IMG/VR virus record: IMGVR_UViG_3300012922_000003
Span: 1-43,854 of that record
From: a virus
Reading direction: 5' to 3' (one strand)
DNA length: 43,854 bases
The first letter of the stretch is position 1. Each line of letters starts with the position of its first letter. Under the pieces are notes generated by a model, which was not told where the DNA came from, ran no database searches, and was given only the letters and a program-made list of their open reading frames with translations. Positions 1 through 43,854 of this stretch are shown here, one piece after another. Made by a program: the position numbers and the translations under genes.

Positions 1-123
1 CGGAGCGCAGATGGGCCGAGTGCGTGGCCTCGGTGACGAAGAACGTAGAGTCCGCGACGCGGATTGAAACGAAGAACGCGCTCCGGTAGTTGCTCTGGTT
101 GGGGCACGAGTTGGTCGGCGCGC
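1..123. repeat. Terminal direct repeat, copy 1 (identical to 43732..43854); consistent with a circular-assembly overlap
   Basis: Read directly. cggagcgcagatgggccgagtgcgtggcc...ggttggtcggcgcgc occurs at both window ends. The repeat lies inside an open reading frame that is continuous across the junction. Confidence 0.9.
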
Positions 124-1309
124 TCTCGGCCGCGAGTTGCGCGACGATGTTGTTGGTGAAGATGGTTTGATCGACCCAGCCAGGCCAACTGGTGTCCCCG
201 TTGACGACGCCAGAGCCATTGTCTACCCCGACGATGGTGTTGTGGTCGAGGTAGTTTCTGCCGCGCGCCTGAAGGATCGAGAGCCCATTTGCGCGCCCGA
301 CCCAGATGTTGCGGCGCCCCGTGAAGGTAATCATGCCGTCTTGGAAGATCGCCGGGCAGCCCTTCACCTTGAAGTAACACGAGTCCACGATGTTCCCGGA
401 GCAGCTCTTGCCGATGCTCCCGGAGCCCGAGAGTTGAATGTTGCAGGTCCCGGGGCCTCCTTGGAAGATCGTGTCCGAGACCATGCGGTTCAAGAGCGAG
501 GAGTCGCGCAGGATGAGCGCGCCCCAGCGGCCACCGACCAGGTTGTTGGTGATGTCCCAGCGGTTGCCGCGCCACAGCGAGTGCAGCATTCCGTAGTGCT
601 CGCGGGCGTGCGAGGTCGGGTCCCCACTCGCTTCGAGCAGGACGGTGAACTTGTTGAACATGTAGGTCGAGGAGTCCTGATACGACTTGAGCGAGGCGTT
701 GCCTGGGGTCCCCGTTACCACGCCGCTCATCATCACATTTCCGCCGCCGGTGTAGCCGACGCCGAGGCGATCCCAGATGTTCGAGAAGAAGCTGTTGCCG
801 ATGGCGTACTGGATATTCGTGCGGGCGATCCAGAAGGTCGGCGAGTGGAAAATGTTCCGCGCGAAAACGTTGTAGTCCGGGCCAGCGAGCTCAAAGGTCC
901 CGTCGACGATGCAATCCATCAGCGAGTCCCAGCGGCAGGCGTTGCCGATGCTGAGGCCGCTGCGGAACTCGACCCCGCGGATCGACAGCGCAGAGTCCGT
1001 GAGCGTGACCGCCGGGGCGATCTTCACGAGACTCGGGTTCGTCACGTCGCCGTAGTAGTGCACCCACTGGCCGGCCACCATCGGCAGGAGTGGGTTGGGC
1101 GCGATCAGGTAGTTGCCGGGGCGCATGAACACGTTGTCGCCGCCGACCGCGAGCAGGTTGGGGACCGCGATCGGACACGGCGCTCCGGCGGTGCAGGCCG
1201 TGCCGGTGCCGGTGGCTGAGACGTAGTAGTCGGTGGCGTGAGCCGGGAGCGCGCTCGCGAAGAGCAGCAGAGCCGAGCAGATCACGAGCCACCAGCGCGG
1301 GCGCGTCAT
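1..1309 (-). CDS. Secreted right-handed beta-helix (pectate-lyase-fold-like) protein, N-terminal part; the gene wraps the window ends (656 aa in total with 43070..43731)
   Basis: Missing from the ORF track because it runs off position 1. The ATG at 1309..1307 overlaps the upstream stop (ATGA). Translation starts MTRPRWWLVICSALLLFASALPAHA/TDYYVSATGTGTACTAGAPCPIAV..., a Sec-type signal peptide followed by the 'YYVS.tG....C....PC' opening typical of parallel beta-helix proteins. Many short N/G/I-rich turns follow. The frame stays open to position 1 and continues in frame at 43731. Confidence 0.75.
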   Translation of the reverse strand, partial: MTRPRWWLVICSALLLFASALPAHATDYYVSATGTGTACTAGAPCPIAVPNLLAVGGDNVFMRPGNYLIAPNPLLPMVAGQWVHYYGDVTNPSLVKIAPAVTLTDSALSIRGVEFRSGLSIGNACRWDSLMDCIVDGTFELAGPDYNVFARNIFHSPTFWIARTNIQYAIGNSFFSNIWDRLGVGYTGGGNVMMSGVVTGTPGNASLKSYQDSSTYMFNKFTVLLEASGDPTSHAREHYGMLHSLWRGNRWDITNNLVGGRWGALILRDSSLLNRMVSDTIFQGGPGTCNIQLSGSGSIGKSCSGNIVDSCYFKVKGCPAIFQDGMITFTGRRNIWVGRANGLSILQARGRNYLDHNTIVGVDNGSGVVNGDTSWPGWVDQTIFTNNIVAQLAAESAPTNSCPNQSNYRSAFFVSIRVADSTFFVTEATHSAHLRS

Positions 1310-1488
1310 CGTGTTGCCCTCATCGCTGCGAGCCGACGCCGACGGCTCTTGGACGGTTTCCCAACCCGGGCTGGCAGGCTGGCGTAGTCCACGCCCTTGT
1401 TGAAGTCCTCCAATTGCGACTTCGTGATCTCTCCGCGCTGGTAGAGCGCGCCCATCTTGCGGAACTGGGCCTGCGACACGGAGGGCAC
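1306..1488 (-). CDS. Small basic protein, DUF3008-like (SxAQxRxMGA....RGE motif)
   Basis: A GTG at 1488 sits directly after the stop of the upstream 75-aa gene. Translation is VPSVSQAQFRKMGALYQRGEITKSQLEDFNKGVDYASLP... The track ORF's Arg/Ala-rich N-terminal extension was trimmed. The stop overlaps the next ATG (ATGA). Confidence 0.5.
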   Translation of the reverse strand: MPSVSQAQFRKMGALYQRGEITKSQLEDFNKGVDYASLPARVGKPSKSRRRRLAAMRATR

Positions 1489-1489
1489 A

Positions 1490-1717
1490 TCAATCGCCGT
1501 AGGCCGGGTTGACGCCGCGCTTCTTCTCCATCGCGATCTCGGCGCGTCCCTTCGGGCCGCCGCCGCGCGCTCGTTCGAGGCGCCGCTCGGCACCGCTGGT
1601 GCGCAATCCGGCGAGCGCCTTCCGCCGGCCACCGCGCAGGAGGCGCGGGTTCTTCTTCTTCGCGCCGATCTTCGCCTTCACGGCTGCGAACCCCGGATGG
1701 CTACCTTGCGCCGCCAT
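1490..1717 (-). CDS. Small basic protein (HPGFAAVKAKI motif), head-module associated
   Basis: 75-aa ORF with G/C-rich third codon positions, starting 17 nt before the portal stop. The HPGF.AV.AKI.. opening resembles small proteins often found next to portal genes (recalled from memory, not searched). Confidence 0.5.
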   Translation of the reverse strand: MAAQGSHPGFAAVKAKIGAKKKNPRLLRGGRRKALAGLRTSGAERRLERARGGGPKGRAEIAMEKKRGVNPAYGD

Positions 1718-3548
1718 TCCTCGATCCTCCTGCGCCCTTCGCCGACGCTGCTGCTGCCTGCGCCTGCTGCATCCGCGCCATCGTCACGCGCTGCTGCACC
1801 GCGCCGCGATCTGGATAGTCAAGGTCCTCAAGAAGTGCACTGCCGTCAATCACACCCATCTGGTAGAGCTGCATGTCGAGGTCGCGGCGGTCCTGCCGAC
1901 CCTGCGCCGTGCCGCTGCCTTCGGCCCAGCGGATGTCGAAGTCCTCGGGGTCCAAGTCCTCCGGGTTGATCCACGCGTCGGTGCCGTCCTCGCCCTGGTA
2001 GTAGAGCGCGTCCTCGCTCTTCATCGCGTCGGCGCACATCATCTTCTTGAGCAGCAGCGCGCCGAACTCGAGCAGCGCCGGACCCTTGGCGTTGGCGCGC
2101 GCGGCGGCTCCTTCCTGGAGTCGCCGGATCGCGGCGGCGGCTTCGATACCGGTCGGGCGCTGCCCGAGCAGCGCGTCGGGTTGTCCCGAGATGATCTGCA
2201 TGTCCATGCGCCGCGTGGAGCGCATCTGGAAGTGCGCCTCGGCGACGCCCTGCTTCTGGAGGTACTCCATCACGGTGCCCTGCGGCACGCGGATGATCTC
2301 TCCACCGTCGACGCCCGAGCGGTCCTGCAACACGCCGCGCACGCCCGTGACCTTGATCGGCGGATTGCCTGTCAGTTCAAGGTCGCGTGAGATGAGCGCG
2401 TCCTGCCGGTTGACCGCGCGCTGGAGCGGGATCACGTCGTCGAGCTCGCCCTTGGCGTAGAAGCGTCCGCCCTGCTCGTAGTCGCGCCCGATCACGAGCG
2501 GGACACCGCCGAGGCAGACGTCCACCGGCATCGGCGGGCCGAGCACCTTCCCGTTGTTGAGCATCGGGATCATCCGCCAGCCGGACTCGCAGCACGGCTC
2601 CTGGGTGGTGTGGATGCCGCCGTAGCTGACCGGACCCGCATCGCTCTGCTCGGTCCAATCGCCGACGTACTTGACCGGCATGGTGGTGTAGTCGCGGCAG
2701 AAGAGTTGGACCAGCATCGCGCTCTGCCCGAACTGCATGTAGGAGCCGGTGTCGGCGACCCAGTGCGCGGCCTGCGTCGCGGTGTCGCCCTCCTTCACCG
2801 CCACCAGTCCGGGCGAGACGATCTGCGGGTGGCCGTAGCGCATCCCCGCTTCGTAGTAGTCGATGTAGGGGCGGATGAACACCTCGTAGCTCGGCGAGGC
2901 CACGTTGTCGGGCTGGATGTCGGCCGCCGCCTGCGGGTAGAGCGCACGCAGTTTCGCCACCGGGACCGGCAGCGCGATGATGAAGAACTCCATCGTCGAT
3001 TCGTCGACGGCGCCGGGGTCCGGGTAGAAGTCGAACGGCGAGAGGTGGCGCGGGACCGCGTTGCCGCGACCGTCCCAGCCGATCATCGTCGGGCTCCATC
3101 CGAACTTGAGCAGGTCGCGCACCGACAGGCGGAAGATGCGGTCGAACCCGCAGGTGTCCATCTTGTAGGTCGCCCACCCACGGATGCGATCGAGACGCCC
3201 CGGCGCGAGTGACCGGCGTGCCACCGGCTCAGGGCGCGGGCGCGTACCAGTCAGAATCGACCAGGGCGTCTCGACGGTCGAGAAACAGAAGTTCGTCACC
3301 GGGTTGTGCTTGTGGTCCCAGGCGTTCTCGTAGTGGAACCCGGCCCAGAACAACTCGCAGAGCTTGAGCCGCGCGGTCTCGCCGCGCTTGGCCTCGAACG
3401 CCATCTGCCACTTCTGCTGCACCCACGAGGCGAGCGCGGTGTCGTCGCTGCCGAGGTGTCCGTAGGGCGGCACCGCCGGGACGTGGCGCTCGTAGCCGAC
3501 GAACTGCTTGCCGCCGCCGAACTCGAACAGCCGCGCGCCGCCGTTCAC
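1701..3548 (-). CDS. Portal protein
   Basis: About 615 aa from the GTG at 3548 (GTGA overlap with the stop of 3545..3901). It lies downstream of the large terminase block and has an acidic/Ala-Gln-rich C-terminal tail. The first 58 codons of the track ORF overlap the upstream gene and were trimmed. Confidence 0.7.
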   Translation of the reverse strand: MNGGARLFEFGGGKQFVGYERHVPAVPPYGHLGSDDTALASWVQQKWQMAFEAKRGETARLKLCELFWAGFHYENAWDHKHNPVTNFCFSTVETPWSILTGTRPRPEPVARRSLAPGRLDRIRGWATYKMDTCGFDRIFRLSVRDLLKFGWSPTMIGWDGRGNAVPRHLSPFDFYPDPGAVDESTMEFFIIALPVPVAKLRALYPQAAADIQPDNVASPSYEVFIRPYIDYYEAGMRYGHPQIVSPGLVAVKEGDTATQAAHWVADTGSYMQFGQSAMLVQLFCRDYTTMPVKYVGDWTEQSDAGPVSYGGIHTTQEPCCESGWRMIPMLNNGKVLGPPMPVDVCLGGVPLVIGRDYEQGGRFYAKGELDDVIPLQRAVNRQDALISRDLELTGNPPIKVTGVRGVLQDRSGVDGGEIIRVPQGTVMEYLQKQGVAEAHFQMRSTRRMDMQIISGQPDALLGQRPTGIEAAAAIRRLQEGAAARANAKGPALLEFGALLLKKMMCADAMKSEDALYYQGEDGTDAWINPEDLDPEDFDIRWAEGSGTAQGRQDRRDLDMQLYQMGVIDGSALLEDLDYPDRGAVQQRVTMARMQQAQAAAASAKGAGGSRNGGAR

Positions 3549-3901
3549 GGCCACAGCCCTTTCCGGCGCAACTGCGTCTCCATCGTCGAGCCCTTCACCG
3601 GCTCCCAGTCCTTCGTGCCGTGCTTGCGCTGGAGTTCGCGGAAGTGGGAACCGCTGCGCACCGGTTGATCGAAGGTCATCGAATAGTGGGCGGGGATGTC
3701 GTTGCGCGTGGCGACCGACCATCGCGGCGTGAACACGACGAGGCGCGCGGTCCGGTCGCAGGTGTAGCAGGTCCGATCAGGATTGAGGCGCTCCGCCTCG
3801 CCGCGGGTCGGGTGCGGGCCGTGCTCGTGGCCGCGGCGGCAGCGCCACGCGAACTGGGGTCGGCCGGCCGGGGCGCCGTGGAACAGGACGTCGTCGGGCA
3901 T
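3545..3901 (-). CDS. Hypothetical protein with Cys/His pairs (WRCRRGHEH...CYTCDR)
   Basis: 118-aa ORF with an ATG start 1 nt after the upstream stop and protein-like composition. The stop overlaps the portal GTG. Confidence 0.6.
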   Translation of the reverse strand: MPDDVLFHGAPAGRPQFAWRCRRGHEHGPHPTRGEAERLNPDRTCYTCDRTARLVVFTPRWSVATRNDIPAHYSMTFDQPVRSGSHFRELQRKHGTKDWEPVKGSTMETQLRRKGLWP

Positions 3902-4158: not shown

Positions 4159-7140
4159 CTACCTCATCCCGCCGAGACCGAGGCGGCGCTGCCGCTGTTC
4201 CTGTGCGAGCACCTGATCCTCCATCGCCAACACTTCTTCGCAAGAAAGTCCGGTCCGGTCAATCGAGACGCGGTTGGCGTTGGCCGGATCGCGCTCCATC
4301 AGCATCCGCAAATCCTCGGCCGTGGCGCGCACGGTTTCCTCCGGCAGCGGCTCCAGCGGCGCCTTCATCGAGCCGCGGTGCGCCATCAGGCAGAGCGCGA
4401 ACGCGATCAGCAGGTCCTTCTCGGCCCCCGACTGCGCATCGGCCTTGCCGTCCACGTAGACCAGCGATTGCATCTGCTGGACGAGGTGCGGACACGGGAG
4501 TTTGCCCATCCGCATCCGCACGAACTTCCGCAGCGTGTTGAACAGATGCTCGCGGTTCCGCTGCGTTGAGAGGTAGCCCGGCTTCTGCGTCACCTCCCCG
4601 CTCACCGTGTCCTCGCTGACCTTGCGGTAGTAGAGGTTCGGGTAGCCGAGCGAGATCACCGTCTCGTGGAACAGGATGCCGTGGTTGTTGGCCTCGTTGA
4701 TGATGAGCGCGTCCCGGAAGTGCTTGGCGAGGTCGACGGCGTGGCAGGCGAGCAGGTCGGGAGGCGTGCGCCCGTACCAGGTCGCCACGAGGTCGAGCGT
4801 CATCTGGTCGAGCACGGCGAGCGGCGAAGCGTCGGAGCCCGGGTCGCCTTCGGAGGGGTCGGCCCCGATCACGTAGCTGTGGCGATCGAGCGGCTCCGCG
4901 AAGATCCGCAGCCGCCCGCGGTCGTGCACGATGATGGTCGGGACGCCGACGCCGGGCGGGTCGGACTCGATCTCCGAGCGTGCCGCCAGCGTGTTCTTCC
5001 GCACCGACTCGGCGACTTTCTCGGTGTAGTGGAGCACCGCCTCGGTGTCGAACGCCGGCCGGCCCGAGAGCAGGAACGCCTCCTGCGGCGTGTTGTGCGT
5101 GAGGATGCCGTTGGCCGAGAACTCGTGATCCGGCTCAACGGTCAGGTCGTAGGTGGCCTCGTGTCCATCGGGCCGGACACTGCCGACGTGATCCGTGAGG
5201 GTCATCGGAAAGCGCGGGCGGCCAACCGCAGAGGGTGCCGCTGGCCGCATGGATCGCTTGCGGACGCCGACGAACCCGATGTGCTCGTGGAAAGCCTCCG
5301 ACGCCGACTTCGTGAAGTTGAGGGCGTAGGAATAGTACGGATTACCGGAGCCCGACTTCTTCGTGCTCGCGCGCAAGGACGTGGGGATTCCGAAGCCGAG
5401 CACGAGCAACTGAACCTCGCGTGCGAACGCGATTTTGGACGAGGACCATGTCACGTCGTGGCCGCGCGCCGAGCCGTCCGCCTCGAACAGCCCGCGCAGA
5501 AACTCTCTGACGATGTAGCGCGGGGATCGCCAAATCGCCTCTGGAACATGGATGTTCCGGCGGTACATGTCGTGCCCGGCGTGTGATCCGACGACGCCAA
5601 GGCGTGCCAGCGTCGGACGAGCAGCGACGCAACCCAGACGAACCTCGATCGCGCCCTTCCTGCCCTGCACGCGCGCAATGTTCCGAGTCGTCGGCTGACC
5701 GATGAGGTTGCGGACGAGGCGGCACACATCTTCGACGACATCTTGGTCCTTCGCGTCGCAGACCACGGAGAGCGTTCCGGCGTACCACGAGCCATCCCCC
5801 ATGAAGTATCCCAACAGCCGCGCCCAATCCCGACCGATGCGCACCGAAGTCTCGTTCCCCGGGATCTCGGACCACCGCTGCGTGTATGGGGTCGCGGCGA
5901 ATCGCGGGGGACGGAGGGTGATTTCCTGCCCGGGTTTGAGTCTGCTCAGCCACACGAAACCGTCCGGCGTGTGGATCGGATGATCGTGCGTACCGCGCAG
6001 GACTCGCCCGGCCGCCGTCGTCAGTAGGAAAATCGGAGAGGTCGGCTGCGGGCCACCGGCGACAATCGGACCTGACTCGGTCTCGGTGGCGGCCAACGAC
6101 TCAGAGATCGGCAGGATGCCTTTCTCTGTGGAGACGCGCACCTCTGCGGTGAGGCAGGCGGGATACTCCTGCCCGAACTTTTCCTCGTCGCCATCGAGGT
6201 TCGAGTTGATGCACCAGCGGCGCCAGCCGAGTTGCTCACCCGTCAGGCCGAAGCGGTCGGCGAGCCGCACCTCATCGGTCGTGAGCTTCCCGGGTCCGCG
6301 GTGGCGCTGATACTCCTCGTGGTCGAACCACGCGACGAACACCGGAGTCCAGCCCTTCTCTTCGAGCGGCACGTCCTTGTCGAGCGCGAGCCCGGTGGCG
6401 CGTGTCCAGGTGCGGTGGAACTTGTTACCGACGCCCTTCGCCGTGCTCTCGATCACCACCAGCGAGTCGACCTGCATCGGCACGGTCTGCATCACCGCGA
6501 CCAGCGTTTCCTCGGGCTGGTCGTACATGGCGAACTCGGACAGGTGGACGTACTGCGCGACGTAGCCACGCGGGTCGCCCTGAACCTCGACCTGCATCCG
6601 CGAGCCGTTGCCGAACTCCATCTCGTGCACGGTCGCCAGCTTCCGCTCCGGCTGAATCTCGGCGGCCAGCATCCGGTAGAAGGTGCGGCTCATGCGGAAG
6701 AGCACGCGCGACGACTTGAGGTTGTGAGCGAGCACCAACGCCGACCGATTCGCGCAGGTCAGGCAGGCGTGGAAGAGGATCGCCTCGATCAGAGTGCTCA
6801 CTCCGACCTGCCGGCTCTTGAGCACGATCAGGCGCGGGGGCACCCCCGCAGCGCGGAGGCGGCGGACCTCCTGGAGGATTTTGCGCTGCGTGGTGTTGAG
6901 GACGAAGGGGACGATCTGCCCGGTCTTGGTGACGATTCTCAGGCAGTCGCGGCAGAAGTCCTCGAAGTGGGTGCGGTAGTAGCCGAGGTCGCGCGCGTCA
7001 GGCTTGGGGCTCGTCTCCGGCTGCGGCGGTGGATTCGCCGTGCTGACGGCCGACGGACTGGGCGCGGCGAACGAAGCCCGCGCGCTCGAAGCCGCTGAGG
7101 AGTTCGCCGAGCGCTTCGGCGATGGCGACTTGCCCGGCAA
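4159..7140 (-). CDS. terL: Terminase large subunit interrupted by a 355-aa intein (993-aa precursor, ~638-aa extein)
   Basis: ATPase motifs LKSRQVGVST (Walker A-like), YVHLSEF (Walker B-like) and VIESTAKG. RNase H-like nuclease motifs YVIGADPS, LIINEANNHG and DLLIAFAL. The start is uncertain: the first ~47 codons are low-complexity and overlap 6998..7375 by 143 nt. Confidence 0.85.
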   Translation of the reverse strand: MPGKSPSPKRSANSSAASSARASFAAPSPSAVSTANPPPQPETSPKPDARDLGYYRTHFEDFCRDCLRIVTKTGQIVPFVLNTTQRKILQEVRRLRAAGVPPRLIVLKSRQVGVSTLIEAILFHACLTCANRSALVLAHNLKSSRVLFRMSRTFYRMLAAEIQPERKLATVHEMEFGNGSRMQVEVQGDPRGYVAQYVHLSEFAMYDQPEETLVAVMQTVPMQVDSLVVIESTAKGVGNKFHRTWTRATGLALDKDVPLEEKGWTPVFVAWFDHEEYQRHRGPGKLTTDEVRLADRFGLTGEQLGWRRWCINSNLDGDEEKFGQEYPACLTAEVRVSTEKGILPISESLAATETESGPIVAGGPQPTSPIFLLTTAAGRVLRGTHDHPIHTPDGFVWLSRLKPGQEITLRPPRFAATPYTQRWSEIPGNETSVRIGRDWARLLGYFMGDGSWYAGTLSVVCDAKDQDVVEDVCRLVRNLIGQPTTRNIARVQGRKGAIEVRLGCVAARPTLARLGVVGSHAGHDMYRRNIHVPEAIWRSPRYIVREFLRGLFEADGSARGHDVTWSSSKIAFAREVQLLVLGFGIPTSLRASTKKSGSGNPYYSYALNFTKSASEAFHEHIGFVGVRKRSMRPAAPSAVGRPRFPMTLTDHVGSVRPDGHEATYDLTVEPDHEFSANGILTHNTPQEAFLLSGRPAFDTEAVLHYTEKVAESVRKNTLAARSEIESDPPGVGVPTIIVHDRGRLRIFAEPLDRHSYVIGADPSEGDPGSDASPLAVLDQMTLDLVATWYGRTPPDLLACHAVDLAKHFRDALIINEANNHGILFHETVISLGYPNLYYRKVSEDTVSGEVTQKPGYLSTQRNREHLFNTLRKFVRMRMGKLPCPHLVQQMQSLVYVDGKADAQSGAEKDLLIAFALCLMAHRGSMKAPLEPLPEETVRATAEDLRMLMERDPANANRVSIDRTGLSCEEVLAMEDQVLAQEQRQRRLGLGGMR
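5092..6156 (-). mobile_element. Intein with LAGLIDADG homing-endonuclease domain inside terL
   Basis: Junctions were read on the DNA: ...FGQEYPA/CLTAEVRVSTEKG (Cys1 codon 6154..6156) and ...EFSANGILTHN/TPQEAF (terminal Asn codon 5092..5094, +1 Thr). Block B is GTHDHPIHT. The two LAGLIDADG motifs are LLGYFMGDGSW and FLRGLFEADGS. Block F is YDLTVEPDHEF. Confidence 0.9.
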
Positions 7141-16005: not shown

Positions 16006-17115
16006 TCACGTGATGAATCTCCCCGATCGCTCGCCCGGACGCACTTCGACCAATCCGTGCTCAAATGACCTGGTCCATCTCCCGTCGTTCGCTAGGACTG
16101 CGGTACCAGCCGGAGCGCCGAGGTTGAGGTCCATCTCCGGAATCCAGATATCGACCATCCCGCGGATGGCGGGATGCCCAGCTTCGTCCGGGGGCGGAAC
16201 GATGACGCCACACCCTTCCCCGAGAGTTGCAGACGCAAGCACGAAGCGGAGGCGTCTTTCGTCTTCCGCATGGTTGCCAGTGGCGATGATGTTCAAAAAC
16301 GAGAGTGGCGGCCTCAAGTAACGCTCTCCGTCCAGCAAATACCCCGGTCCTGGCCATATACCCGGGGCGGTCCCGACCATGTTGGATTCCCAAGTGCCAC
16401 CGTTCTGCGCTGGGAATGCCTCTCGACACCAACCGTTGAACACATCGGGGTCGCTCCCCGGACCGCAGTTGCCGACCAGCAGCTTGTCGCCGATGTGCCA
16501 GCGCAGGCCCTCGACGTAGGCGCGTCGGCCGTTCTGCCAGGCGCGCTCGAAGCTCGGGAAATCCGGGAAGCCGGCGCGCACGAAGTCGAACTGCTGCTCC
16601 GGCGTCTGCATCCACGCGAGCGTCGGGCAGCAGAGGTCGAGGAACAGACCATCGGCGAGCGCGCGTGTGCGATCCCAAGACGGCATGACCCCGGTCTCGG
16701 CGATGGCGCGGGCGTCGTGGTGAGAGAGCGCCCACGGCACCGCCCAGTGGGCGAAGTTGACGTTGCAGCCGGGGAACAACCTTCCATCTTTCGCCCACAC
16801 GAACGCCTTCTCCCCGTAGTGCGCGAGCGCCAACCAGCGCTGGTGCGCGAAGTCCTCCGCCCCGGCGCTCGGGTTGTTCCAGACTGCGTGCGCGGTGTTG
16901 AACAGCAGCAGCGTCATCGCCGGATTGCGCTTCTTCAAGGCCTCGGCGATCTCGGGATACCACAGCAGCGGCGCGGCATCCAGCACCACCACCGAGTAGC
17001 GGGCGTGGAGGTCTAGCTGGGCGTCGTTCAACGAGCCATCGGGGTTCCTGAGCGGCCAGCCGTCGCTATGTCCGCCGCGGCAGAAGCCATAGACCGAGGT
17101 ACGAGGATACTTCAC
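16006..17115 (-). CDS. TIM-barrel glycoside-hydrolase-like protein (GHL15-like, tentative)
   Basis: 369 aa with no signal peptide. The motifs ADGLFLDLC, NGWCREAFP, RFVLASATLGEG and the C-terminal W.PE.DLNLGAPAG......W.R.F.HGLVEVRP resemble hypothetical glycosyl-hydrolase family 15 as I recall it (not searched). The ATG overlaps the methyltransferase stop (ATGA). Confidence 0.4.
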   Translation of the reverse strand: MKYPRTSVYGFCRGGHSDGWPLRNPDGSLNDAQLDLHARYSVVVLDAAPLLWYPEIAEALKKRNPAMTLLLFNTAHAVWNNPSAGAEDFAHQRWLALAHYGEKAFVWAKDGRLFPGCNVNFAHWAVPWALSHHDARAIAETGVMPSWDRTRALADGLFLDLCCPTLAWMQTPEQQFDFVRAGFPDFPSFERAWQNGRRAYVEGLRWHIGDKLLVGNCGPGSDPDVFNGWCREAFPAQNGGTWESNMVGTAPGIWPGPGYLLDGERYLRPPLSFLNIIATGNHAEDERRLRFVLASATLGEGCGVIVPPPDEAGHPAIRGMVDIWIPEMDLNLGAPAGTAVLANDGRWTRSFEHGLVEVRPGERSGRFIT

Positions 17116-23040: not shown

Positions 23041-23589
23041 TTACGGGTAGATGAGTCCGGTTCCGACCGGCCGGACGAACTCGTAGTCGCCGTCCGCCGT
23101 GGTCTTGCCGAATGCGTGTGCAAACGACGCGGCGAGCGCGAATCGCGAACTCACCGCGTAGGATCCGGACAGGTGGGCTTCCGTCCCACGCCAGCGCCGC
23201 ACGCTGCTCTCGCCCTGCCACATCGCGCCCCCACCGATCCCGAGCGAGAACTTCGACTGCACCAGCGGCGGCGGATAGACCAGCAGGTTTGCGCACAGGC
23301 GGACATCGTTGATGTGCCCGTCGTCGCGGGAGAAGGGGAACCCGTGCTCGAGCACCAGGTAGGTCGAGAGCCGCGGGTGCCACGAGTAGGTGAGCGCTCC
23401 GGCGAGCGAGGCCCCCCGCCAGTCAGGGTTCTCGCCCGACTTCGTGAACCACAGTCCGCCAGCCTGCCACGAGAGCGAGGTGCGTTCCTGCCAGTCGAAC
23501 AGCGAGTAGCGCTCCTGCGCCCGGCCTGCGCGCGGGAGCACCGCAGCCAGCAGTAGCGCGAGGATCAGAAAGCGTGCGAATCGGTGCAT
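23041..23589 (-). CDS. Exported beta-barrel outer-membrane-protein-like protein
   Basis: Signal peptide MHRFARFLILALLLAAVLPRAGRAQ. Alternating-hydrophobicity strands (LSGSYAVSSRFALAASFAHAF, FSLGIGGGAMW, TYLVLEHGFPF). ATG preceded by AAGGGGGA. Confidence 0.45.
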   Translation of the reverse strand: MHRFARFLILALLLAAVLPRAGRAQERYSLFDWQERTSLSWQAGGLWFTKSGENPDWRGASLAGALTYSWHPRLSTYLVLEHGFPFSRDDGHINDVRLCANLLVYPPPLVQSKFSLGIGGGAMWQGESSVRRWRGTEAHLSGSYAVSSRFALAASFAHAFGKTTADGDYEFVRPVGTGLIYP

Positions 23590-24082: not shown

Positions 24083-24184
24083 TCAGCGGGACTTCGCGAA
24101 CAAACCGGCTGCACCGAGGATCAGCGCGATCCACAGCAGCGCGTTGCCCAAGTTCCAGCAGACGAAGCGACGGTAGCAGCTCAT
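24083..24184 (-). CDS. 33-aa single-TM peptide
   Basis: The ATG overlaps the stop of 24181..24501 (ATGA). Sequence is MSCYRRFVCWNLGNALLWIALILGAAGLFAKSR. Confidence 0.35.
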   Translation of the reverse strand: MSCYRRFVCWNLGNALLWIALILGAAGLFAKSR

Positions 24185-24501
24185 TTCTTCTTGAGGGCGT
24201 CGTTCACGCGGTCCTCAAGCCTCAGCAGCCCGGTCTGGATGTTGGCACAGTCCTGCACTACGGCGGTGCTCTCGCGGACCACCTGCCCCAGCCGCTCGCG
24301 GTCCTCCTTGACGCTGGCTTCGACCGCCGCCAGCCGGGCGGTGAGCGCGGCGCGCTCCTCGCTCGACTTCCCGAGCGCGGCCTGGGCCTTCTCCAGTTCG
24401 CTCCCGAGTTTCCCCACGCGCCAGTGCGTGACTGCCGCCTGCGCCACGACTCCCGCAACGCCTAGGCCAGCCACAATCCATGCCGGATCGACTTTTTCCA
24501 A
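24181..24501 (-). CDS. i-spanin-like protein (N-terminal TM helix plus coiled coil)
   Basis: 106 aa, TTG start with GAGAGGAAG upstream. AWIVAGLGVAGVVAQAAV is followed by a long charged helix. It lies next to the endolysin. Confidence 0.45.
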   Translation of the reverse strand: MEKVDPAWIVAGLGVAGVVAQAAVTHWRVGKLGSELEKAQAALGKSSEERAALTARLAAVEASVKEDRERLGQVVRESTAVVQDCANIQTGLLRLEDRVNDALKKK

Positions 24502-24566: not shown

Positions 24567-25082
24567 TTACGCCAACTCGTCGAACTGGTCTGCGGCGCGA
24601 TTGAGCCAGCCTGCGGCGAACGTGGCCTGTGACGGTCGGCCAGAGATCAACCGCCCGTAGAAGCGGACGCGCTCCGCGAGGAAGCGCCGCGCCGTCTTGA
24701 GCCCGTCGAGCAGGTTGAGCGTTCCGAGCGTCTGCGGCCCCAGCACGCCGTCCTCGCGAACGCCCAGCACATGCTGGAGCAGCCGCGTTGACACCATCGG
24801 CCCGTGATTTACGGCGGCGTCTACGATGCACGCGCGCAGAACCTCGGAGGCGATGCCGTCGTAGCCTGGCTTGATGATGTAGCGGTTGAGGAGGATCGCG
24901 CGGGCTTCCTCGACGGTCAGCGCTTTCACTTCGTCAGCGGTGGCGATGCGGCCGAGCCTGCGTGAATCTCCGAGCGTGGCGGCGGTGATGCCGAAGTTGG
25001 TGGGGCCGCCCTTGTCGGCGGGGTTGTCCACGAAGCCGCCCTCGCGCTGGAGCACGCGGTCGATCATCTCGGCGTCGGTCAC
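24567..25082 (-). CDS. Endolysin, GH108 lysozyme with a C-terminal peptidoglycan-binding domain
   Basis: 171 aa from the GTG at 25082 (GTGA overlap with the giant gene's stop). LQREGGFVDNPADKGGPTNFGIT is the GH108 signature. The long track ORF extension was rejected. Confidence 0.85.
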   Translation of the reverse strand: MTDAEMIDRVLQREGGFVDNPADKGGPTNFGITAATLGDSRRLGRIATADEVKALTVEEARAILLNRYIIKPGYDGIASEVLRACIVDAAVNHGPMVSTRLLQHVLGVREDGVLGPQTLGTLNLLDGLKTARRFLAERVRFYGRLISGRPSQATFAAGWLNRAADQFDELA

Positions 25083-40846: not shown

Positions 40847-41902
40847 TTACGACACGCCCGACGTGTCCACCTGATCCTGGACACCGTTGGCGCGCGGCTC
40901 GGAAACGATGAACTCACCGCGCCACAGGATGTAGGCGGTGCGAACCATCTGGTTGTGCGGCTTGCGGAACGGCTCGAAGGCGAAGTCGGCCCGGCTGTCC
41001 ACCCACAGCCGAACGCTCGGCTCGTGGAGGTAGTAGACCGTCTCGACCTTGCCCGACGTCCGCGGTGCCTTCTCGTCCTGCACCCACACGGCGGTGCGGA
41101 ACATGAAGTTCTCGAACCCCGACTTGTAGAGGTCGGCGTTCTGCTGCGGCTTCACGTAGCGCTCGTTCTTCACGAGGCTGTAGTGCACGTCCGACCACGA
41201 GCCGACGTTGCTCGCGATCATCGTGGGCGCCTTGCCGCTGGCGAGTTTGATCTTCGCGAACATCCGCGAGATCGGCATGAAGTTGTCGCCGCAGTAGGTG
41301 CCACCAGCACCCGTGGTGTAGGCCGTGTTGTCGCCCTGGTGAATCCACCAGTTGTTGGTCTGCGTGCCGCCGCCCGAGCCGTCGTAGCGTCCCTGGCGGC
41401 TGATACCGCCGTAGACATTCGCGGGCAGGACGCCGGGCGCAGCTCCGGTGAACGGCTTGAGCGCGTAGGCAAGGCCGGTCAGCGCCTTCACCTCCGTGCC
41501 GTCGTTGAACATGTTGGTGCCCATGCCGTCGAAGAAGGTGTTGCGCGCCCACTCGCCCTTCGACTCCATAAGGTCCATCACCTGCTCCGGGCCGGAGACC
41601 GTCATCTCCTCGTCCCAGTCGATCGTCAGGTCGACGTTGGCGTTCTTGGGCACGAACTCCGCCGCCTGGAACGGGTCGCGGATCGTCGGCGCGAACACAT
41701 CCGCACCCGCGAACCACTTGAGCCCGCCCTGCGTGCGCCATCCCAGCGGAACCACGATGCGGCGTCCTCCTGTGAAATTCTTCGAGCGCCCCTTCATGCG
41801 CATGAACAGGGCGTTCGACAGGAAGATCTGATCGTGGATCATCGGGATGATGTAGTCCTGGACCATGACGTTGGCCTGGTTCCAGGGGAAGCTGCTCGTC
41901 AT
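40847..41902 (-). CDS. Major capsid protein
   Basis: 351-aa ORF directly downstream of an acidic scaffold-like gene. Size and composition are typical of podoviral capsid proteins. Confidence 0.7.
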   Translation of the reverse strand: MTSSFPWNQANVMVQDYIIPMIHDQIFLSNALFMRMKGRSKNFTGGRRIVVPLGWRTQGGLKWFAGADVFAPTIRDPFQAAEFVPKNANVDLTIDWDEEMTVSGPEQVMDLMESKGEWARNTFFDGMGTNMFNDGTEVKALTGLAYALKPFTGAAPGVLPANVYGGISRQGRYDGSGGGTQTNNWWIHQGDNTAYTTGAGGTYCGDNFMPISRMFAKIKLASGKAPTMIASNVGSWSDVHYSLVKNERYVKPQQNADLYKSGFENFMFRTAVWVQDEKAPRTSGKVETVYYLHEPSVRLWVDSRADFAFEPFRKPHNQMVRTAYILWRGEFIVSEPRANGVQDQVDTSGVS

Positions 41903-41916
41903 CCGAGATCACTCCT

Positions 41917-42738
41917 TTACGGTCGACGCTTCACGCCCAGCAGGCGTTCGCCTGCGGCCTTGATCGCCGACTCCATTGTGGTGTTGGGACCGGGCTTCCA
42001 CGGCTCCGCGGGGGCAGCCCCGCTGCTGCCGGTGTCCACGATCGTGGCGACGGGCTGGGTCTTGCCGCCGGAAGCCGCACCGGGCTTCGCAGCGGTGGCC
42101 CCGTTCGTCCCGACTCTCACGGCGTCAGGGAACACCACGCGGGTGGCCTGAGCGAGCGAGAGTTGCCTGCCGAGATCGGGATGCTGGAGGAGGTAGTCCT
42201 CCACTTGGTCCACGTGCTCTCTCGTCATCGGCTTGCCGCCGACGCGGTAGTCGTTCATGAGGGCCACCTCTTCGGCGGCCAACTTGGTGTCCTCGCGCTC
42301 CACGCGATCAGCGTGGGTGGCGCTGCGCTGCGCGGCGAGATCCTGCTCCGCCTGCTGGAGCCGCTTCGCGAGGCCCTGCACCACGGGGTCGTCGTGCGCG
42401 AGCGCGGCCTTGAGGAGTTCATCCTCTTCGGCCTTGGTCTCGGGCTCGGGTTCCGCCATGCGGCGCGAGATGGTCTCGGTGAGCTCGCTGATCTGCTCGC
42501 TGATCTGGTCGAGGCTGAGTTCGTCCTCGGCGGGCTCGGCTGCCGGCTCGGCCTCGGGGGCGTCGGGGGCCGGCTCTGGCTTCGCCTCGGGCTCCGGCTT
42601 CGCAGCGTCGGCGGCCGGGATGCCCTCGGCCTCGCGCTCCTCGGCGCTCAGGCTGGCGTAGAAGTCGGTGGTGTTCGCATCCGCCCTCGCGGCGGCGTCA
42701 CGCGGCATGGTGAAGTTCGGAAGGTTCGGCATGGTCAC
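41917..42738 (-). CDS. Scaffolding protein
   Basis: 273 aa, very acidic and Ala/Glu/Pro-rich with helical segments, immediately upstream of the capsid gene. Confidence 0.6.
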   Translation of the reverse strand: MTMPNLPNFTMPRDAAARADANTTDFYASLSAEEREAEGIPAADAAKPEPEAKPEPAPDAPEAEPAAEPAEDELSLDQISEQISELTETISRRMAEPEPETKAEEDELLKAALAHDDPVVQGLAKRLQQAEQDLAAQRSATHADRVEREDTKLAAEEVALMNDYRVGGKPMTREHVDQVEDYLLQHPDLGRQLSLAQATRVVFPDAVRVGTNGATAAKPGAASGGKTQPVATIVDTGSSGAAPAEPWKPGPNTTMESAIKAAGERLLGVKRRP

Positions 42739-43070
42739 ATCTCCTCAGGGAAGATCGGCTGCGCTCCAGCGTCGGTTCCGAGCGGCTCGGCTCCGGTCGC
42801 GTTCATGTCCATCGGTGACTGCGGCGCGCCCTCTGGCCCGCCCGGCCCCTGCGGCGGCTGCGCGCCGACGCCGATCCCGCCGAGCGCCTGCGCACGCGCC
42901 TGCACCTCATGGAAGAAGGCCGCGAGGATGCGCTGCTCGTTCACGTCGAGCTGGCGGTCGGCGAAGAGCAGCGCGAGCCCCTGCCGCGCCCACTGCTCCA
43001 GACTCAGCGTGGGGCGGTCTGGCGGTGCTTGCGCCGTCGGGCTGACGCCGGTTTCAGGTGCGAGTCCCAT
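42735..43070 (-). CDS. Hypothetical head-module protein
   Basis: 111 aa from the ATG at 43070 (GAGAGGAGA upstream; shares one nucleotide with the upstream TGA). The stop overlaps the scaffold ATG. Confidence 0.45.
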   Translation of the reverse strand: MGLAPETGVSPTAQAPPDRPTLSLEQWARQGLALLFADRQLDVNEQRILAAFFHEVQARAQALGGIGVGAQPPQGPGGPEGAPQSPMDMNATGAEPLGTDAGAQPIFPEEM

Positions 43071-43854
43071 CAGCGTCTCCTCTCGCCGGGGTCTCCGCGT
43101 GGCGGGGAACCGCCAGGGTTGTTGATGTAGCAAGGGAAGTAGACGAGCTTACCGCTGCCATCGTTGGACTCGATGCCGAGGTTCAACAGCCCGGGCGCGG
43201 TGCCGGTCCCGGTCGGCGTAAACGTCAGCGTCACGAAGCCAACCGCCCCAACACCCACCGAGAGCGTGTCCTGTGAAGCGGTGAGCAGCGGCGTCGAACC
43301 ACCGCTTGAGTTCTGAGGCGTCATGTGCGAGACGCTCAAGACGGTGGTGCCGAAGTTGAAGATCCCCACGTCCCAGGTCTGCGCCGAGCCCTCGTCAGTG
43401 AAGTAGGCAGGAGCGCTGAACTGGATCACTGGGTAGCCCGCGAATGGCAGGGCACCGATGTCTCCGCCCGCGAGGTCGTGCGAGCGGGCCTGCGAGGGGG
43501 TGGTGATCGTGGGATCGAAGGTCGCGAAGATCGAGTCGCGGAACCACGGCGACCCGTAGTAACTGGAGTCGTCGCAGCCCACGCACCACTTGGTCGTCCA
43601 GGCGGTGTTGGTGCCGGGGCGCTGTCCGCGGTCTCCGTTCTGCCACTGGAGCAGGATGCTACGGACTCCCACGGTGTCGTTCGGGTAGGAGCAGCCGATG
43701 GCGGTGCCATAGTAGGCGTAGAGGTTGCCCTCGGAGCGCAGATGGGCCGAGTGCGTGGCCTCGGTGACGAAGAACGTAGAGTCCGCGACGCGGATTGAAA
43801 CGAAGAACGCGCTCCGGTAGTTGCTCTGGTTGGGGCACGAGTTGGTCGGCGCGC
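43070..43854 (-). CDS. C-terminal part of the wrap-around secreted beta-helix protein (continues from 1..1309)
   Basis: The frame is open from the window end down to the stop at 43070..43072. Junction reading ...THSAHLRSE-GNLYAYYGTAIGCSYPNDTVGVRSILLQ was verified codon by codon. The C-terminal ~90 aa (VGFVTLTFTPTGTGTAPGLLNLGIESND) look like an Ig/ASH-type beta-sandwich. Confidence 0.75.
   Translation of the reverse strand, partial: APTNSCPNQSNYRSAFFVSIRVADSTFFVTEATHSAHLRSEGNLYAYYGTAIGCSYPNDTVGVRSILLQWQNGDRGQRPGTNTAWTTKWCVGCDDSSYYGSPWFRDSIFATFDPTITTPSQARSHDLAGGDIGALPFAGYPVIQFSAPAYFTDEGSAQTWDVGIFNFGTTVLSVSHMTPQNSSGGSTPLLTASQDTLSVGVGAVGFVTLTFTPTGTGTAPGLLNLGIESNDGSGKLVYFPCYINNPGGSPPRGDPGERRR
43732..43854. 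repeat. Terminal direct repeat, copy 2 (identical to 1..123)
   Basis: Read directly from the sequence. Confidence 0.9.

What the first reader, a model, noticed from the sequence alone, without database searches (positions are those of the whole stretch)
1..1309. Hidden wrap-around gene: a secreted parallel beta-helix protein between portal and scaffold
The ORF track misses this 656-aa gene because it crosses the window ends (1309..1, then 43731..43070). It has a Sec signal peptide (…LLFASALPAHA/TDYYVS), a beta-helix-type N-terminus and an Ig-like C-terminal domain. Beta-helix depolymerases in phages are normally tailspikes without signal peptides and sit in the tail module. This one is exported and lies inside the head-morphogenesis block, which suggests a soluble secreted polysaccharide-degrading enzyme released during infection.
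Basis: partly seen in the sequence, partly recalled or inferred. Interest (0 to 1): 0.65.

Follow-up and report, generated by a model that had tools for sequence, protein, structure and literature searches.

The report
Exported beta-helix protein in phage head operon
A real 656-residue gene spans the two ends of this circular phage genome and encodes a sugar-enzyme-like beta-helix protein that carries an export signal instead of a virion-attachment domain, so it most likely acts on the host's envelope sugars, not as a tailspike; its activity is untested.

Summary
The window ends share a 123-bp direct repeat. Joining them gives a 1971-nt minus-strand ORF (1309..1 + 43731..43070, 656 aa). An independent assembly carries the same gene mid-contig and is 100% identical over 7,971 bp across the junction.

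With a 36-sequence alignment, AlphaFold (pLDDT 85.5) gives three parts:
- an N-terminal helix with canonical Sec signal features (…ALPAHA|TDYYV);
- a long right-handed parallel beta-helix (best PDB hits: PL9 Pel9A, PL6 alginate lyases, tailspikes);
- a C-terminal PapD/ASH/HYDIN-type Ig domain.

The gene sits between a small DUF3008-like gene and the g111–scaffold–capsid genes. ATGA overlaps couple it to both neighbours, and it has no promoter or terminator of its own.

It is accessory cargo, not a core head gene. Homologues in related uncultured podoviruses occupy at least four genomic positions and keep the signal peptide. One is fused to a subtilase. The closest capsid relatives lack the gene in this slot.

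It is most likely exported and not part of the virion. If the host is Gram-negative, as the endolysin suggests, export means the periplasm. No catalytic family membership could be shown. Two neighbouring structural-block proteins also carry signal peptides. I rate it a new variant of a known kind, of moderate interest.

The parts
1..123 (.). Terminal direct repeat, identical to 43732-43854; marks a circular (or circularly permuted) assembly. It lies inside the beta-helix gene.
   Evidence: exact 123-bp match. (an independent contig reads through the junction at 100% identity).
43732..43854 (.). Second copy of the terminal repeat. Redundant sequence; remove it when circularising.
1..1309 (-). 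5' part of the beta-helix gene: codons 1-436 and the first base of codon 437. ATG at 1309-1307.
43070..43731 (-). 3' part of the beta-helix gene: the rest of codon 437 through codon 656, and the TGA stop at 43072-43070.
1235..1309 (-). Predicted Sec signal peptide, residues 1-25 (MTRPRWWLVICSALLLFASALPAHA | TDYYV).
   Evidence: Sequence features. AF2 helix at 6-18. The same design occurs in about 70 family representatives. Cleavage was not tested.
1..1234 (-). Right-handed parallel beta-helix, N-terminal cap and rungs (residues 26 to about 436); continues across the junction.
   Evidence: repeated short strands, pLDDT mostly above 90. (Foldseek hits to Pel9A, PL6 lyases, tailspikes). (N-terminal cap matches PL9 lyase 5olq).
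43511..43731 (-). Distal part of the beta-helix / C-terminal cap region (residues about 437-510). The domain boundary is approximate.
43121..43426 (-). C-terminal Ig-like beta-sandwich of PapD/ASH/HYDIN/DUF1573 type, residues about 539-640.
   Evidence: strand pattern. (HYDIN, CEP192 ASH, PapD; rmsd 3-5 Å). (ASH / HYDIN_VesB_CFA65-like_Ig / DUF1573 hits in homologues)..
1317..1321 (-). GAGGG Shine-Dalgarno motif 7 nt upstream of the ATG. It lies inside the end of the upstream gene.
   Evidence: The same motif and spacing occur in L001.
1306..1488 (-). Small upstream gene (60 aa, GTG start) of the DUF3008 kind. Its TGA overlaps the beta-helix ATG (ATGA at 1309-1306). In relatives without the beta-helix gene it directly abuts g111.
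   Evidence: Pfam DUF3008 at 25.0 and 24.4 bits in the L018 and L012 orthologues; the window copy itself is below threshold. Fused in frame to the beta-helix protein in L007/L008.
42735..43070 (-). Downstream 111-aa gene (g111). Its ATG (43070-43068) overlaps the beta-helix TGA. It is conserved just before the scaffold gene across most of the lineage; its function is unknown.
1701..3722 (-). Portal protein (P22-like). The ORF as listed; the independent gene call uses a later start (617 aa).
41917..42738 (-). Scaffold-like protein: acidic, Ala/Pro/Glu-rich, directly upstream of the capsid gene. Assigned by position and composition only.
   Evidence: inference.
40847..41902 (-). Major capsid protein.
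   Evidence: phrog_9953, E = 6.7e-29.

Best explanation
The wrap-around ORF is a genuine late gene. Its product is exported, is not part of the virion, and is a right-handed beta-helix protein of the pectin-lyase-like (carbohydrate-binding / sugar-hydrolase) superfamily.

Proposed mechanism:
1. The gene is transcribed within the head operon. ATGA overlaps couple its translation to the small DUF3008-like gene upstream and to g111 downstream, so it is made in quantity together with portal, scaffold and capsid proteins.
2. The 25-residue signal peptide sends the pre-protein through SecYEG, and signal peptidase I cuts after A-H-A. The mature protein begins directly at the beta-helix cap (TDYYV…). 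No room is left for a virion-attachment domain.
3. In the probably Gram-negative host it accumulates in the periplasm. There the beta-helix groove, helped by the C-terminal Ig-like domain, binds envelope polysaccharide (capsule, EPS or O-antigen) in transit and most likely cleaves or modifies it. At lysis it is released as a free enzyme.
4. The likely benefit is receptor or matrix destruction: fewer progeny are lost on debris and slime, and release is easier.

Shown: the gene, the circular junction, signal-peptide features, the fold, the operon context, and mobility of the gene among related phages.
Inferred: export and cleavage, catalysis, the substrate, and the benefit to the phage.
For: Gene and junction.

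Signal peptide:
- Canonical n/h/c regions with A-x-A placed immediately before the conserved (T/A)TYYV cap in nearly all of about 70 representatives, down to about 25% identity.
- The solved PL9 lyase 5olq begins at the equivalent position.

Fold: pLDDT 85.5 and pTM 0.80. Foldseek probability is about 1.0 for Pel9A, PL6 alginate lyases, XylC and tailspikes, and for PapD/ASH/HYDIN Ig domains.

Not a virion part. The family occupies at least four positions in related P22-portal / SU10-adaptor podoviruses:
- portal to scaffold: window, L001, L002, L005/6, L007/8, L024;
- after the cement gene: L004, L010;
- before the terminase, fused to a secreted-type subtilase: L009;
- the early/replication region of a 40%-GC relative: L025.
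The closest capsid relatives (about 70% MCP identity) lack it in this slot; there the DUF3008 gene abuts g111.

A cellular homologue with a signal peptide sits next to a PMT-family envelope glycosyltransferase on a 1.2-Mb contig.

No promoter or terminator flanks the gene on its coding strand.

Gram-negative host: a GH108 + PG_binding_3 endolysin without signal peptide or SAR domain.

Cysteine content is 2.1%, against 0.96% in 30 other proteins of the phage and 0-0.6% in scaffold, capsid and cement proteins.

The gene diverges faster than its neighbours in L001: 41% identity against 59-63% for g111 and the portal end.

Precedents for periplasmic beta-helix glycanases acting on polysaccharide in transit: VexL (PMC6003464) and WceF (PMC7949094). 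Precedent for a Sec-exported phage enzyme: Lys44 (PMC6116005).
Against: - No catalytic family could be assigned. The window protein hits no Pfam, PHROG or NCBIfam model, and homologues match PL9 models only over the signal peptide and N-terminal cap.
- In the 36-sequence alignment no Lys, Arg or His is invariant or nearly invariant. The conserved Asp-Ser and Asn positions look like structural repeat features (my reading).
- I had no model coordinates, so no active-site groove could be inspected.
- Signal-peptide assignment rests on sequence rules; no dedicated predictor was available.
- Cysteine parity across the family is uninformative: 23 of 45 proteins have an even count.
- The host is unknown.
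- Beta-helix plus Ig is also a typical tailspike or fibre architecture, and no clear tailspike was identified elsewhere in this genome.
Confidence: 0.55

Rival explanations
1. Exported but non-catalytic. The beta-helix/Ig protein is a periplasmic or surface-bound binding protein. It would mask or block a receptor or an export machine, giving superinfection exclusion or protecting progeny from debris in the manner of T5 Llp, without cleaving any polysaccharide.
For: The export evidence is the same as for the best explanation. No catalytic signature or family membership was detected. Two further signal-peptide proteins of unknown fold lie in the same structural block, which suggests a broader set of envelope-directed factors. 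The comparison with T5 Llp is from my own knowledge.
Against: A beta-helix of about 480 residues with a PL9-like cap is the usual scaffold of glycan lyases and hydrolases. One family member is fused to a subtilase and others carry two tandem beta-helix domains, which look like enzyme cassettes. Nine Asp residues are invariant among the nine closest homologues.
Confidence: 0.2
2. Virion-associated tailspike, receptor-binding protein or head fibre. The hydrophobic N-terminus would not be used for export; it would be uncleaved, buried, or used for attachment. The protein would be assembled onto particles like ordinary phage beta-helix depolymerases.
For: The gene lies in the structural operon. 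Beta-helix plus Ig is a classic tailspike or decoration architecture, and BFVD hits include many tailspikes. No other obvious tailspike was found in the genome. The variable cement-to-adaptor region of relatives carries fibre-like proteins (collagen, PKD, BNR) mixed with signal-peptide proteins.
Against: The mature chain would start at the beta-helix cap, with no particle-binding domain. The signal-peptide design is conserved across the whole family and in a chromosomal homologue. The gene moves to pre-terminase and early-region positions and is missing from the closest relatives in this slot. It is fused behind a subtilase that has its own N-terminal signal. A Sec substrate leaves the cytoplasm, where tailed phages assemble (established knowledge).
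Confidence: 0.12
3. Moron or lysogenic-conversion gene. It would be expressed from a prophage for the benefit of the host, for example by remodelling biofilm matrix or surface antigen, and not for the lytic cycle.
For: Signal-peptide-bearing cargo genes inside late operons are a known moron pattern; lambda lom and bor are examples from my own knowledge. The distribution among relatives is patchy. An OMP-like 182-aa gene with a signal peptide also occurs in this genome.
Against: No promoter-like or terminator-like element flanks the gene on its coding strand, and ATGA overlaps occur at both ends. No integrase or repressor was found in about 40 ORFs scanned. Pattern scans of 185,579 species-representative genomes found no relatives of the capsid or of the beta-helix protein, so no prophage copies were found.
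Confidence: 0.08

Closest known systems
PL9 pectate / rhamnogalacturonan lyases (Dickeya Pel9A/PelL, 1ru4; Bacteroides BT4170, 5olq)
   Same: Secreted proteins with a Sec signal peptide followed at once by the '(T)YYV..G.D.N.GT…P..TI..A……GD.V.V..G.Y' cap, then a right-handed parallel beta-helix. Pel9A is the best PDB fold hit. The N-terminal cap matches by sequence.
   Different: Sequence similarity stops after about 60 residues. Scores are far below family cutoffs (PelN 33-37 bits against 740). The Ca2+-binding Asp cluster and catalytic Lys of PL9 could not be mapped. This protein is about 200 residues longer, has an added Ig domain, and is encoded by a phage.
VexL, the periplasmic Vi-antigen lyase of Burkholderiales (PL1 beta-helix; PMC6003464)
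   Same: A signal-peptide-bearing, disulfide-containing beta-helix enzyme that works in the periplasm on capsule polymer in transit. This is the mode of action I propose here.
   Different: VexL is a cellular gene in a capsule locus. It belongs to PL1, is about 400 aa, and has no Ig domain. No sequence relationship was detected here.
Phage tailspike / virion depolymerases (P22, Sf6, Dettilon gp208, K1F and others)
   Same: Phage-encoded right-handed beta-helix, often with C-terminal beta-sandwich domains; structural hits.
   Different: Tailspikes have an N-terminal particle-binding domain and no signal peptide, are assembled in the cytoplasm, and sit in the tail module. This protein has a signal peptide and no adaptor domain, and its gene position varies, including early regions.
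WceF of Pantoea stewartii (Tat-exported, tailspike-like stewartan hydrolase; PMC7949094)
   Same: An exported beta-helix glycanase related to phage tailspikes that trims the producer's own EPS. It shows that tailspike-like folds function as free exported enzymes.
   Different: WceF is bacterial, uses a Tat signal, is trimeric, and keeps a P22-like head-binding domain. Here the gene is viral, the signal is Sec-type, and the oligomeric state is unknown.
Sec-exported phage lysis enzymes (fOg44 Lys44; SAR endolysins; PMC6116005)
   Same: Precedent that tailed phages use the host Sec system to place a late enzyme in the envelope before lysis.
   Different: Those are peptidoglycan hydrolases within lysis cassettes. 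This phage has a separate cytoplasmic GH108 endolysin, and the beta-helix protein has no muralytic domain.

Membership tests
Right-handed parallel beta-helix (pectin-lyase-like / CASH) superfamily | Stack of three-stranded coils forming a right-handed parallel beta-helix | tested here: met
   The AF2 model (pLDDT 85.5) shows more than 40 short strands in a regular repeat over residues 27 to about 510. Foldseek probability is about 1.0 for Pel9A, PL6 lyases, XylC and tailspikes. Four of the 36 aligned family members hit Pfam Beta_helix and four hit Pel9A-like_beta_helix.
Polysaccharide lyase family 9 (Pel9A / PelN / BT4170) | Full-length sequence match above the family threshold | tested here: not met
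   The window protein has no hit. Homologues match residues about 10-70 only: Pel9A-like at 27.3 bits over 50 residues, and PelN at 33-37 bits against a cutoff of 740.
Polysaccharide lyase family 9 (Pel9A / PelN / BT4170) | Ca2+-binding Asp cluster and catalytic Lys base in the groove | not testable with these tools
No Lys, Arg or His is invariant or nearly invariant in the 36-sequence alignment.
Sec/SPase-I secreted pre-proteins | Positively charged n-region, hydrophobic h-region of 10-15 residues, small residues at -3 and -1 (A-x-A) | tested here: met
   MTRPRWWLVICSALLLFASALPAHA|TD: two Arg, best 10-residue Kyte-Doolittle mean 3.0, and A-H-A. The same pattern holds in nearly all of about 70 family representatives. 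There is no lipobox and no twin-arginine motif (read from the sequence). SignalP was not available.
Sec/SPase-I secreted pre-proteins | Demonstrated export and cleavage | not testable with these tools
   This needs fractionation or N-terminal sequencing.
Phage tailspike / virion depolymerase | N-terminal particle-binding (adaptor) domain ahead of the beta-helix | tested here: not met
   The beta-helix cap starts at residue 26, immediately after the predicted cleavage site.
Phage tailspike / virion depolymerase | Fixed position in the tail module; a core gene of the lineage | tested here: not met
   Four different positions were found, including pre-terminase and early regions, and the gene is absent from this slot in the closest capsid relatives.
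Phage tailspike / virion depolymerase | Homotrimer present in virions | not tested
   No multimer prediction or proteomics was possible.
PapD/ASH/HYDIN-like Ig domains (Pfam ASH, HYDIN_VesB_CFA65-like_Ig, DUF1573) | Seven- or eight-stranded beta-sandwich matching the family by structure or sequence | tested here: met
   Structure: HYDIN, CEP192 and PapD hits with rmsd 3-5 Å over about 110-125 columns. Sequence: the family profile hits Hydin at E = 8.5e-8. Eight of 36 homologues hit the Pfam models. The window copy itself is below Pfam thresholds.
Moron (autonomous cargo cassette) | Own promoter and terminator flanking the gene | tested here: not met
   No promoter-like or terminator-like site flanks the gene on its coding strand in L011. 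ATGA overlaps occur at both ends.

The most novel reading that the evidence does not exclude
This uncultured podovirus lineage may run a late 'periplasmic secretome'. Several signal-peptide proteins are encoded inside the structural operon: the beta-helix protein and the 263-aa and 659-aa proteins at 39477-40268 and 37501-39480. A 182-aa OMP-like signal-peptide protein is encoded elsewhere in the genome (23041-23589), and relatives carry analogous but different signal-peptide beta-helix proteins in the structural block. Together these would be exported to dismantle or re-model the host's surface polysaccharide from the inside before lysis. That would be a receptor-destroying strategy comparable to viral neuraminidase or T5 Llp, and has not been described for tailed phages in this form.
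Probability: 0.25. Interest if true: 0.7.

Novelty: new variant of a known kind. Interest (0 to 1): 0.45.

Why it matters
Phage polysaccharide depolymerases are nearly always studied as tailspikes fixed to the particle. If this family is truly Sec-exported, it is a second route by which phages deploy beta-helix glycan-active proteins: as free envelope enzymes made with the capsid proteins. The family is phage-borne, keeps its signal peptide down to about 25% identity, and moves between genome positions. That would bear on how progeny escape capsule, slime and receptor-rich debris. It would also offer naturally soluble enzymes without an adaptor domain for biofilm or capsule degradation.

There is a practical lesson too. 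The gene is invisible to ORF callers on a linearised contig, because the assembler's terminal overlap cuts it in two.

Tried and rejected
- Direct family scans of the window protein (Pfam, PHROGs, NCBIfam) found nothing beyond one marginal PHROG of unknown function.
- tblastn of the target and the portal against 50,697 cultured phage records gave no match.
- The first AlphaFold run, with only two sequences, failed (pLDDT 33). It succeeded only after the exhaustive HMMER search supplied 36 homologues.
- Word-indexed homologue searches found almost nothing beyond one 41% homologue.
- Pattern-based locus scans for the beta-helix family found nothing in IMG/VR, GTDB genomes or JGI metagenomes. Two alignments were too divergent to use. 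The capsid scan of GTDB also found nothing.
- I tested whether the 659-aa signal-peptide protein is a paralogue of the target. It is not.
- I tried cysteine parity as a disulfide/export indicator. It is uninformative; only a modest cysteine enrichment remains.
- I looked for a promoter or terminator of the gene's own and found none.
- I looked for lysogeny genes and found none in about 40 ORFs.
- Literature searches found no report of a signal-peptide-bearing beta-helix protein in a tailed-phage head operon, only analogues.
Full report
**1. The observation**

The first 123 bases of the window are identical to the last 123. Removing one copy gives a 43,731-bp circle with 67.6% G+C.

On the minus strand, 1309..1 followed by 43731..43070 is a single ORF of 656 codons plus TGA.

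It is a coding sequence and not a chance open frame of a high-GC genome:
- GC at codon positions 1/2/3 is 0.54/0.52/0.88, and the pattern disappears in the shifted frames.
- A GAGGG ribosome-binding motif lies 7 nt before the ATG, here and in a 41%-identical homologue.
- Full-length homologues exist.
- The protein folds confidently.

An independent assembly of run SRR6266850 carries the gene intact in the middle of a 43,723-bp contig. It is 100% identical over 7,971 bp spanning the junction. The database contig is 43,872 bp, 141 bp longer than the circle. That suggests an assembler k-mer overlap and not a physical terminal repeat; this is my inference.

**2. What the protein is**

The window protein matches no Pfam or NCBIfam model, and among PHROGs only one marginal family of unknown function. 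It has no relative among 50,697 cultured phage records.

An exhaustive HMMER search of 1.84 billion representatives found 62 relatives below 1e-30. Most are 630-700 aa and align end to end.

With 36 of them as the alignment, AlphaFold gave pLDDT 85.5 and pTM 0.80. The model has three parts:
- an N-terminal helix at residues 6-18;
- a long run of short, regularly spaced strands from residue 27 to about 510;
- a beta-sandwich at residues 539-640.

Foldseek places the body with right-handed parallel beta-helix proteins: PL9 Pel9A, PL6 alginate lyases, XylC, phage tailspikes, and uncultured-phage 'right-handed beta helix' proteins. It places the C-terminal domain with PapD/ASH/HYDIN Ig-like domains. 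Sequence profiles agree for the N-terminal cap (PL9 lyase 5olq) and for the Ig domain (Hydin; ASH, HYDIN_VesB_CFA65-like_Ig and DUF1573 in homologues).

The N-terminus, MTRPRWWLVICSALLLFASALPAHA|TDYYV, has all three regions of a Sec/SPase-I signal peptide. Nearly every family representative has the same design, with A-x-A immediately before the conserved (T/A)TYYV cap. The solved PL9 structure starts at the equivalent residue.

**3. Context**

All neighbouring genes are on the minus strand. In order they are:
- a terminase large subunit that carries a LAGLIDADG intein;
- two small genes;
- a P22-like portal;
- a 75-aa gene;
- a 60-aa DUF3008-like gene;
- the beta-helix gene;
- a conserved 111-aa gene (g111);
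- a scaffold-like gene;
- the major capsid protein;
- a cement protein.

The beta-helix ATG overlaps the stop of the DUF3008-like gene (ATGA), and its TGA overlaps the ATG of g111. No promoter-like or terminator-like element flanks it on its coding strand. It is therefore an embedded, translationally coupled member of the late head operon, and not an autonomous cassette.

**4. Comparative evidence: cargo, not core**

Every phage context sampled belongs to the same uncultured podovirus group, marked by a P22_portal or SU10_portal hit; loci that reach the tail genes also carry an SU10_adaptor gene.

The family sits in the portal-to-scaffold slot in the window/L011, L001, L002, L005/6, L007/8 and L024. 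Elsewhere it occupies other positions:
- after the cement gene in L004 and L010;
- upstream of the terminase in L009, where it is fused behind a subtilase domain;
- in the early/replication region, on the strand opposite the portal gene, in a 40%-GC relative, as a tandem double beta-helix (L025).

In L007/L008 it is fused in frame to the DUF3008 gene.

The window's closest capsid relatives in IMG/VR (about 70% MCP identity) have no family member within ±10 kb of the capsid gene. In L012 and L015 of that group, and in the more distant L018, a DUF3008 gene lies directly before g111.

One more distant member is chromosomal. It lies on a 1.23-Mb, 72%-GC contig, has a signal peptide, and sits next to a PMT-family glycosyltransferase.

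A gene that hops between late, pre-terminase and early positions, is present or absent among close relatives, and always keeps its signal peptide is very unlikely to be a virion part. The mature chain would also start directly at the beta-helix cap, which leaves no particle-binding domain.

**5. Likely mechanism**

The phage has a separate GH108 + PG_binding_3 endolysin that starts at ATG 25067 and has no signal or SAR sequence. It also has an OMP-like 182-aa gene with a signal peptide. I take these as indications of a Gram-negative host; that is an inference.

In such a host a Sec signal delivers to the periplasm, not to the medium.

The best-supported model is an exported glycan-binding beta-helix protein, probably glycan-cleaving, that acts on capsule, EPS or O-antigen in transit and afterwards in the lysate. 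It would work like cellular VexL (PMC6003464) or WceF (PMC7949094), using the Sec route that some phage endolysins use (PMC6116005).

Weaker supporting signs:
- Cysteine content is 2.1% against 0.96% in other proteins of the phage.
- In L001 it diverges faster than its neighbours: 41% identity against 59-63% for g111 and the portal end.

Limits of this model:
- No catalytic family membership could be shown. PL9 models match only the first ~60 residues.
- No conserved basic residue stands out.
- Cysteine parity is uninformative.

A non-catalytic binding or masking role therefore remains a serious rival. A virion role and a lysogenic-conversion role are less likely, for the reasons given in the rival entries. 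No integrase or repressor was found, and pattern scans found no prophage copies in 185,579 species genomes.

**6. An unexpected extra**

The target is not the only exported protein in the structural block. The 263-aa and 659-aa genes between the cement and adaptor genes have equally canonical signal peptides (…LLLAAPAFA|AT and …VLAWPAFA|GS). Proteins at the same positions in L002 and L007 also carry signal peptides. A homologue of the 659-aa protein lies directly upstream of the beta-helix gene in L010.

This cement-to-adaptor region ranges from about 0.5 to 9 kb in relatives. It carries other signal-peptide proteins, including an unrelated 999-aa Beta_helix/NosD protein in L014, alongside PKD, collagen-like and Sortilin/BNR proteins. 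What this lineage does with several exported late proteins is unexplained. It is the basis of the 'novel case'.

**7. Verdict**

- Observation: confirmed.
- Interpretation: partly supported. The fold, signal peptide, Ig domain and position are right. The enzyme activity and 'secretion' are inferred. The head-module position is incidental cargo placement and says nothing about function.
- Novelty: a new variant of a known kind, namely a phage beta-helix depolymerase-like protein deployed by export and not on the tail. I found no published precedent in the searchable literature.
- Interest: moderate (0.45). The anatomy is solid and a little surprising, but the function is untested.

Noticed in passing
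window 39477-40268 (-) and 37501-39480 (-): Two further genes in the structural block, between the cement and adaptor genes, encode proteins of 263 and 659 aa with canonical Sec signal peptides (MRRWYGTIILALLLAAPAFA|AT; MKPRLWWAWIFGAVLAWPAFA|GS). Neither has a Pfam, PHROG, NCBIfam or PDB match. Proteins at the same positions in L002 (236 and 674 aa) and L007 (205 aa) also have signal peptides, and a homologue of the 659-aa protein lies just upstream of the beta-helix gene in L010.
   Followed up: partly
window 4159-7140 (-): The terminase large subunit ORF is 993 aa and contains an intein with a LAGLIDADG homing-endonuclease domain (LAGLIDADG_3 at residues 544-622; Intein_splicing at 368-683). 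Related phages have terminases of about 590-650 aa without it.
   Followed up: no
window 1306-1488 (-); L007 9288-11696; L012 8546-8755; L018 8394-8663: The small gene just upstream of the beta-helix gene is of the DUF3008 kind; Pfam passes threshold in the L012 and L018 orthologues, not in the window copy. In L007/L008 it is fused in frame to the beta-helix protein (802 aa), which would turn the signal peptide into an internal membrane anchor unless an internal start is used.
   Followed up: partly
window 23041-23589 (-): A 182-aa protein with a signal peptide (MHRFARFLILALLLAAVLPRAGRA|QE) and an alternating, aromatic-ended sequence that looks like a small outer-membrane beta-barrel (Lom/Ail-like by eye). 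It has no database match.
   Followed up: no
window 16006-17115 (-): A 369-aa early-region protein matches Pfam GHL15 (hypothetical glycosyl hydrolase family 15; 32.4 bits against a cutoff of 27). This is a second possible glycan-active gene in the phage.
   Followed up: no
window 24567-25067 (-): The endolysin (GH108 + PG_binding_3) starts at ATG 25067, directly after the 1935-aa gene, and has no signal or SAR sequence. The listed 472-aa ORF (24567-25985) overextends it into the neighbouring gene. A nearby 106-aa protein (24181-24501) has an N-terminal hydrophobic segment followed by a long, probably helical (coiled-coil-like) region, judged by eye, and may be a spanin or holin.
   Followed up: partly
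window 25079-30886 (-) and 25100-30613 (+): A cysteine-free 1935-aa protein with a ParB-like region (phrog_1033, residues 637-813), probably an internal or ejection protein. An 1837-aa antisense ORF on the plus strand mirrors it, which shows how long spurious ORFs become at 68% GC.
   Followed up: no
L014 15748-18747; L012 16520-20065; L015 13175-15223; L007 15172-17481: The cement-to-adaptor region of relatives is hypervariable (0.5-9 kb). It holds an unrelated 999-aa signal-peptide protein with Beta_helix/NosD repeats, an 1181-aa Sortilin/BNR protein, a PKD-domain protein and a collagen-repeat protein.
   Followed up: partly
L009 7178-11164 and 5618-5866: In this relative the beta-helix/Ig module is fused behind a subtilase (Peptidase_S8) in a 1328-aa protein with a signal or anchor sequence, encoded upstream of the terminase. 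The same locus has an Acb2/Tad1-hairpin (anti-CBASS/Thoeris sponge) gene.
   Followed up: no
L025 10001-13336: A 40%-GC phage with an SU10-type portal carries a 1111-aa member with two tandem beta-helix domains, in its early/replication region next to primase, thymidylate synthase and DNA polymerase genes. The family therefore spans hosts of very different GC content.
   Followed up: no
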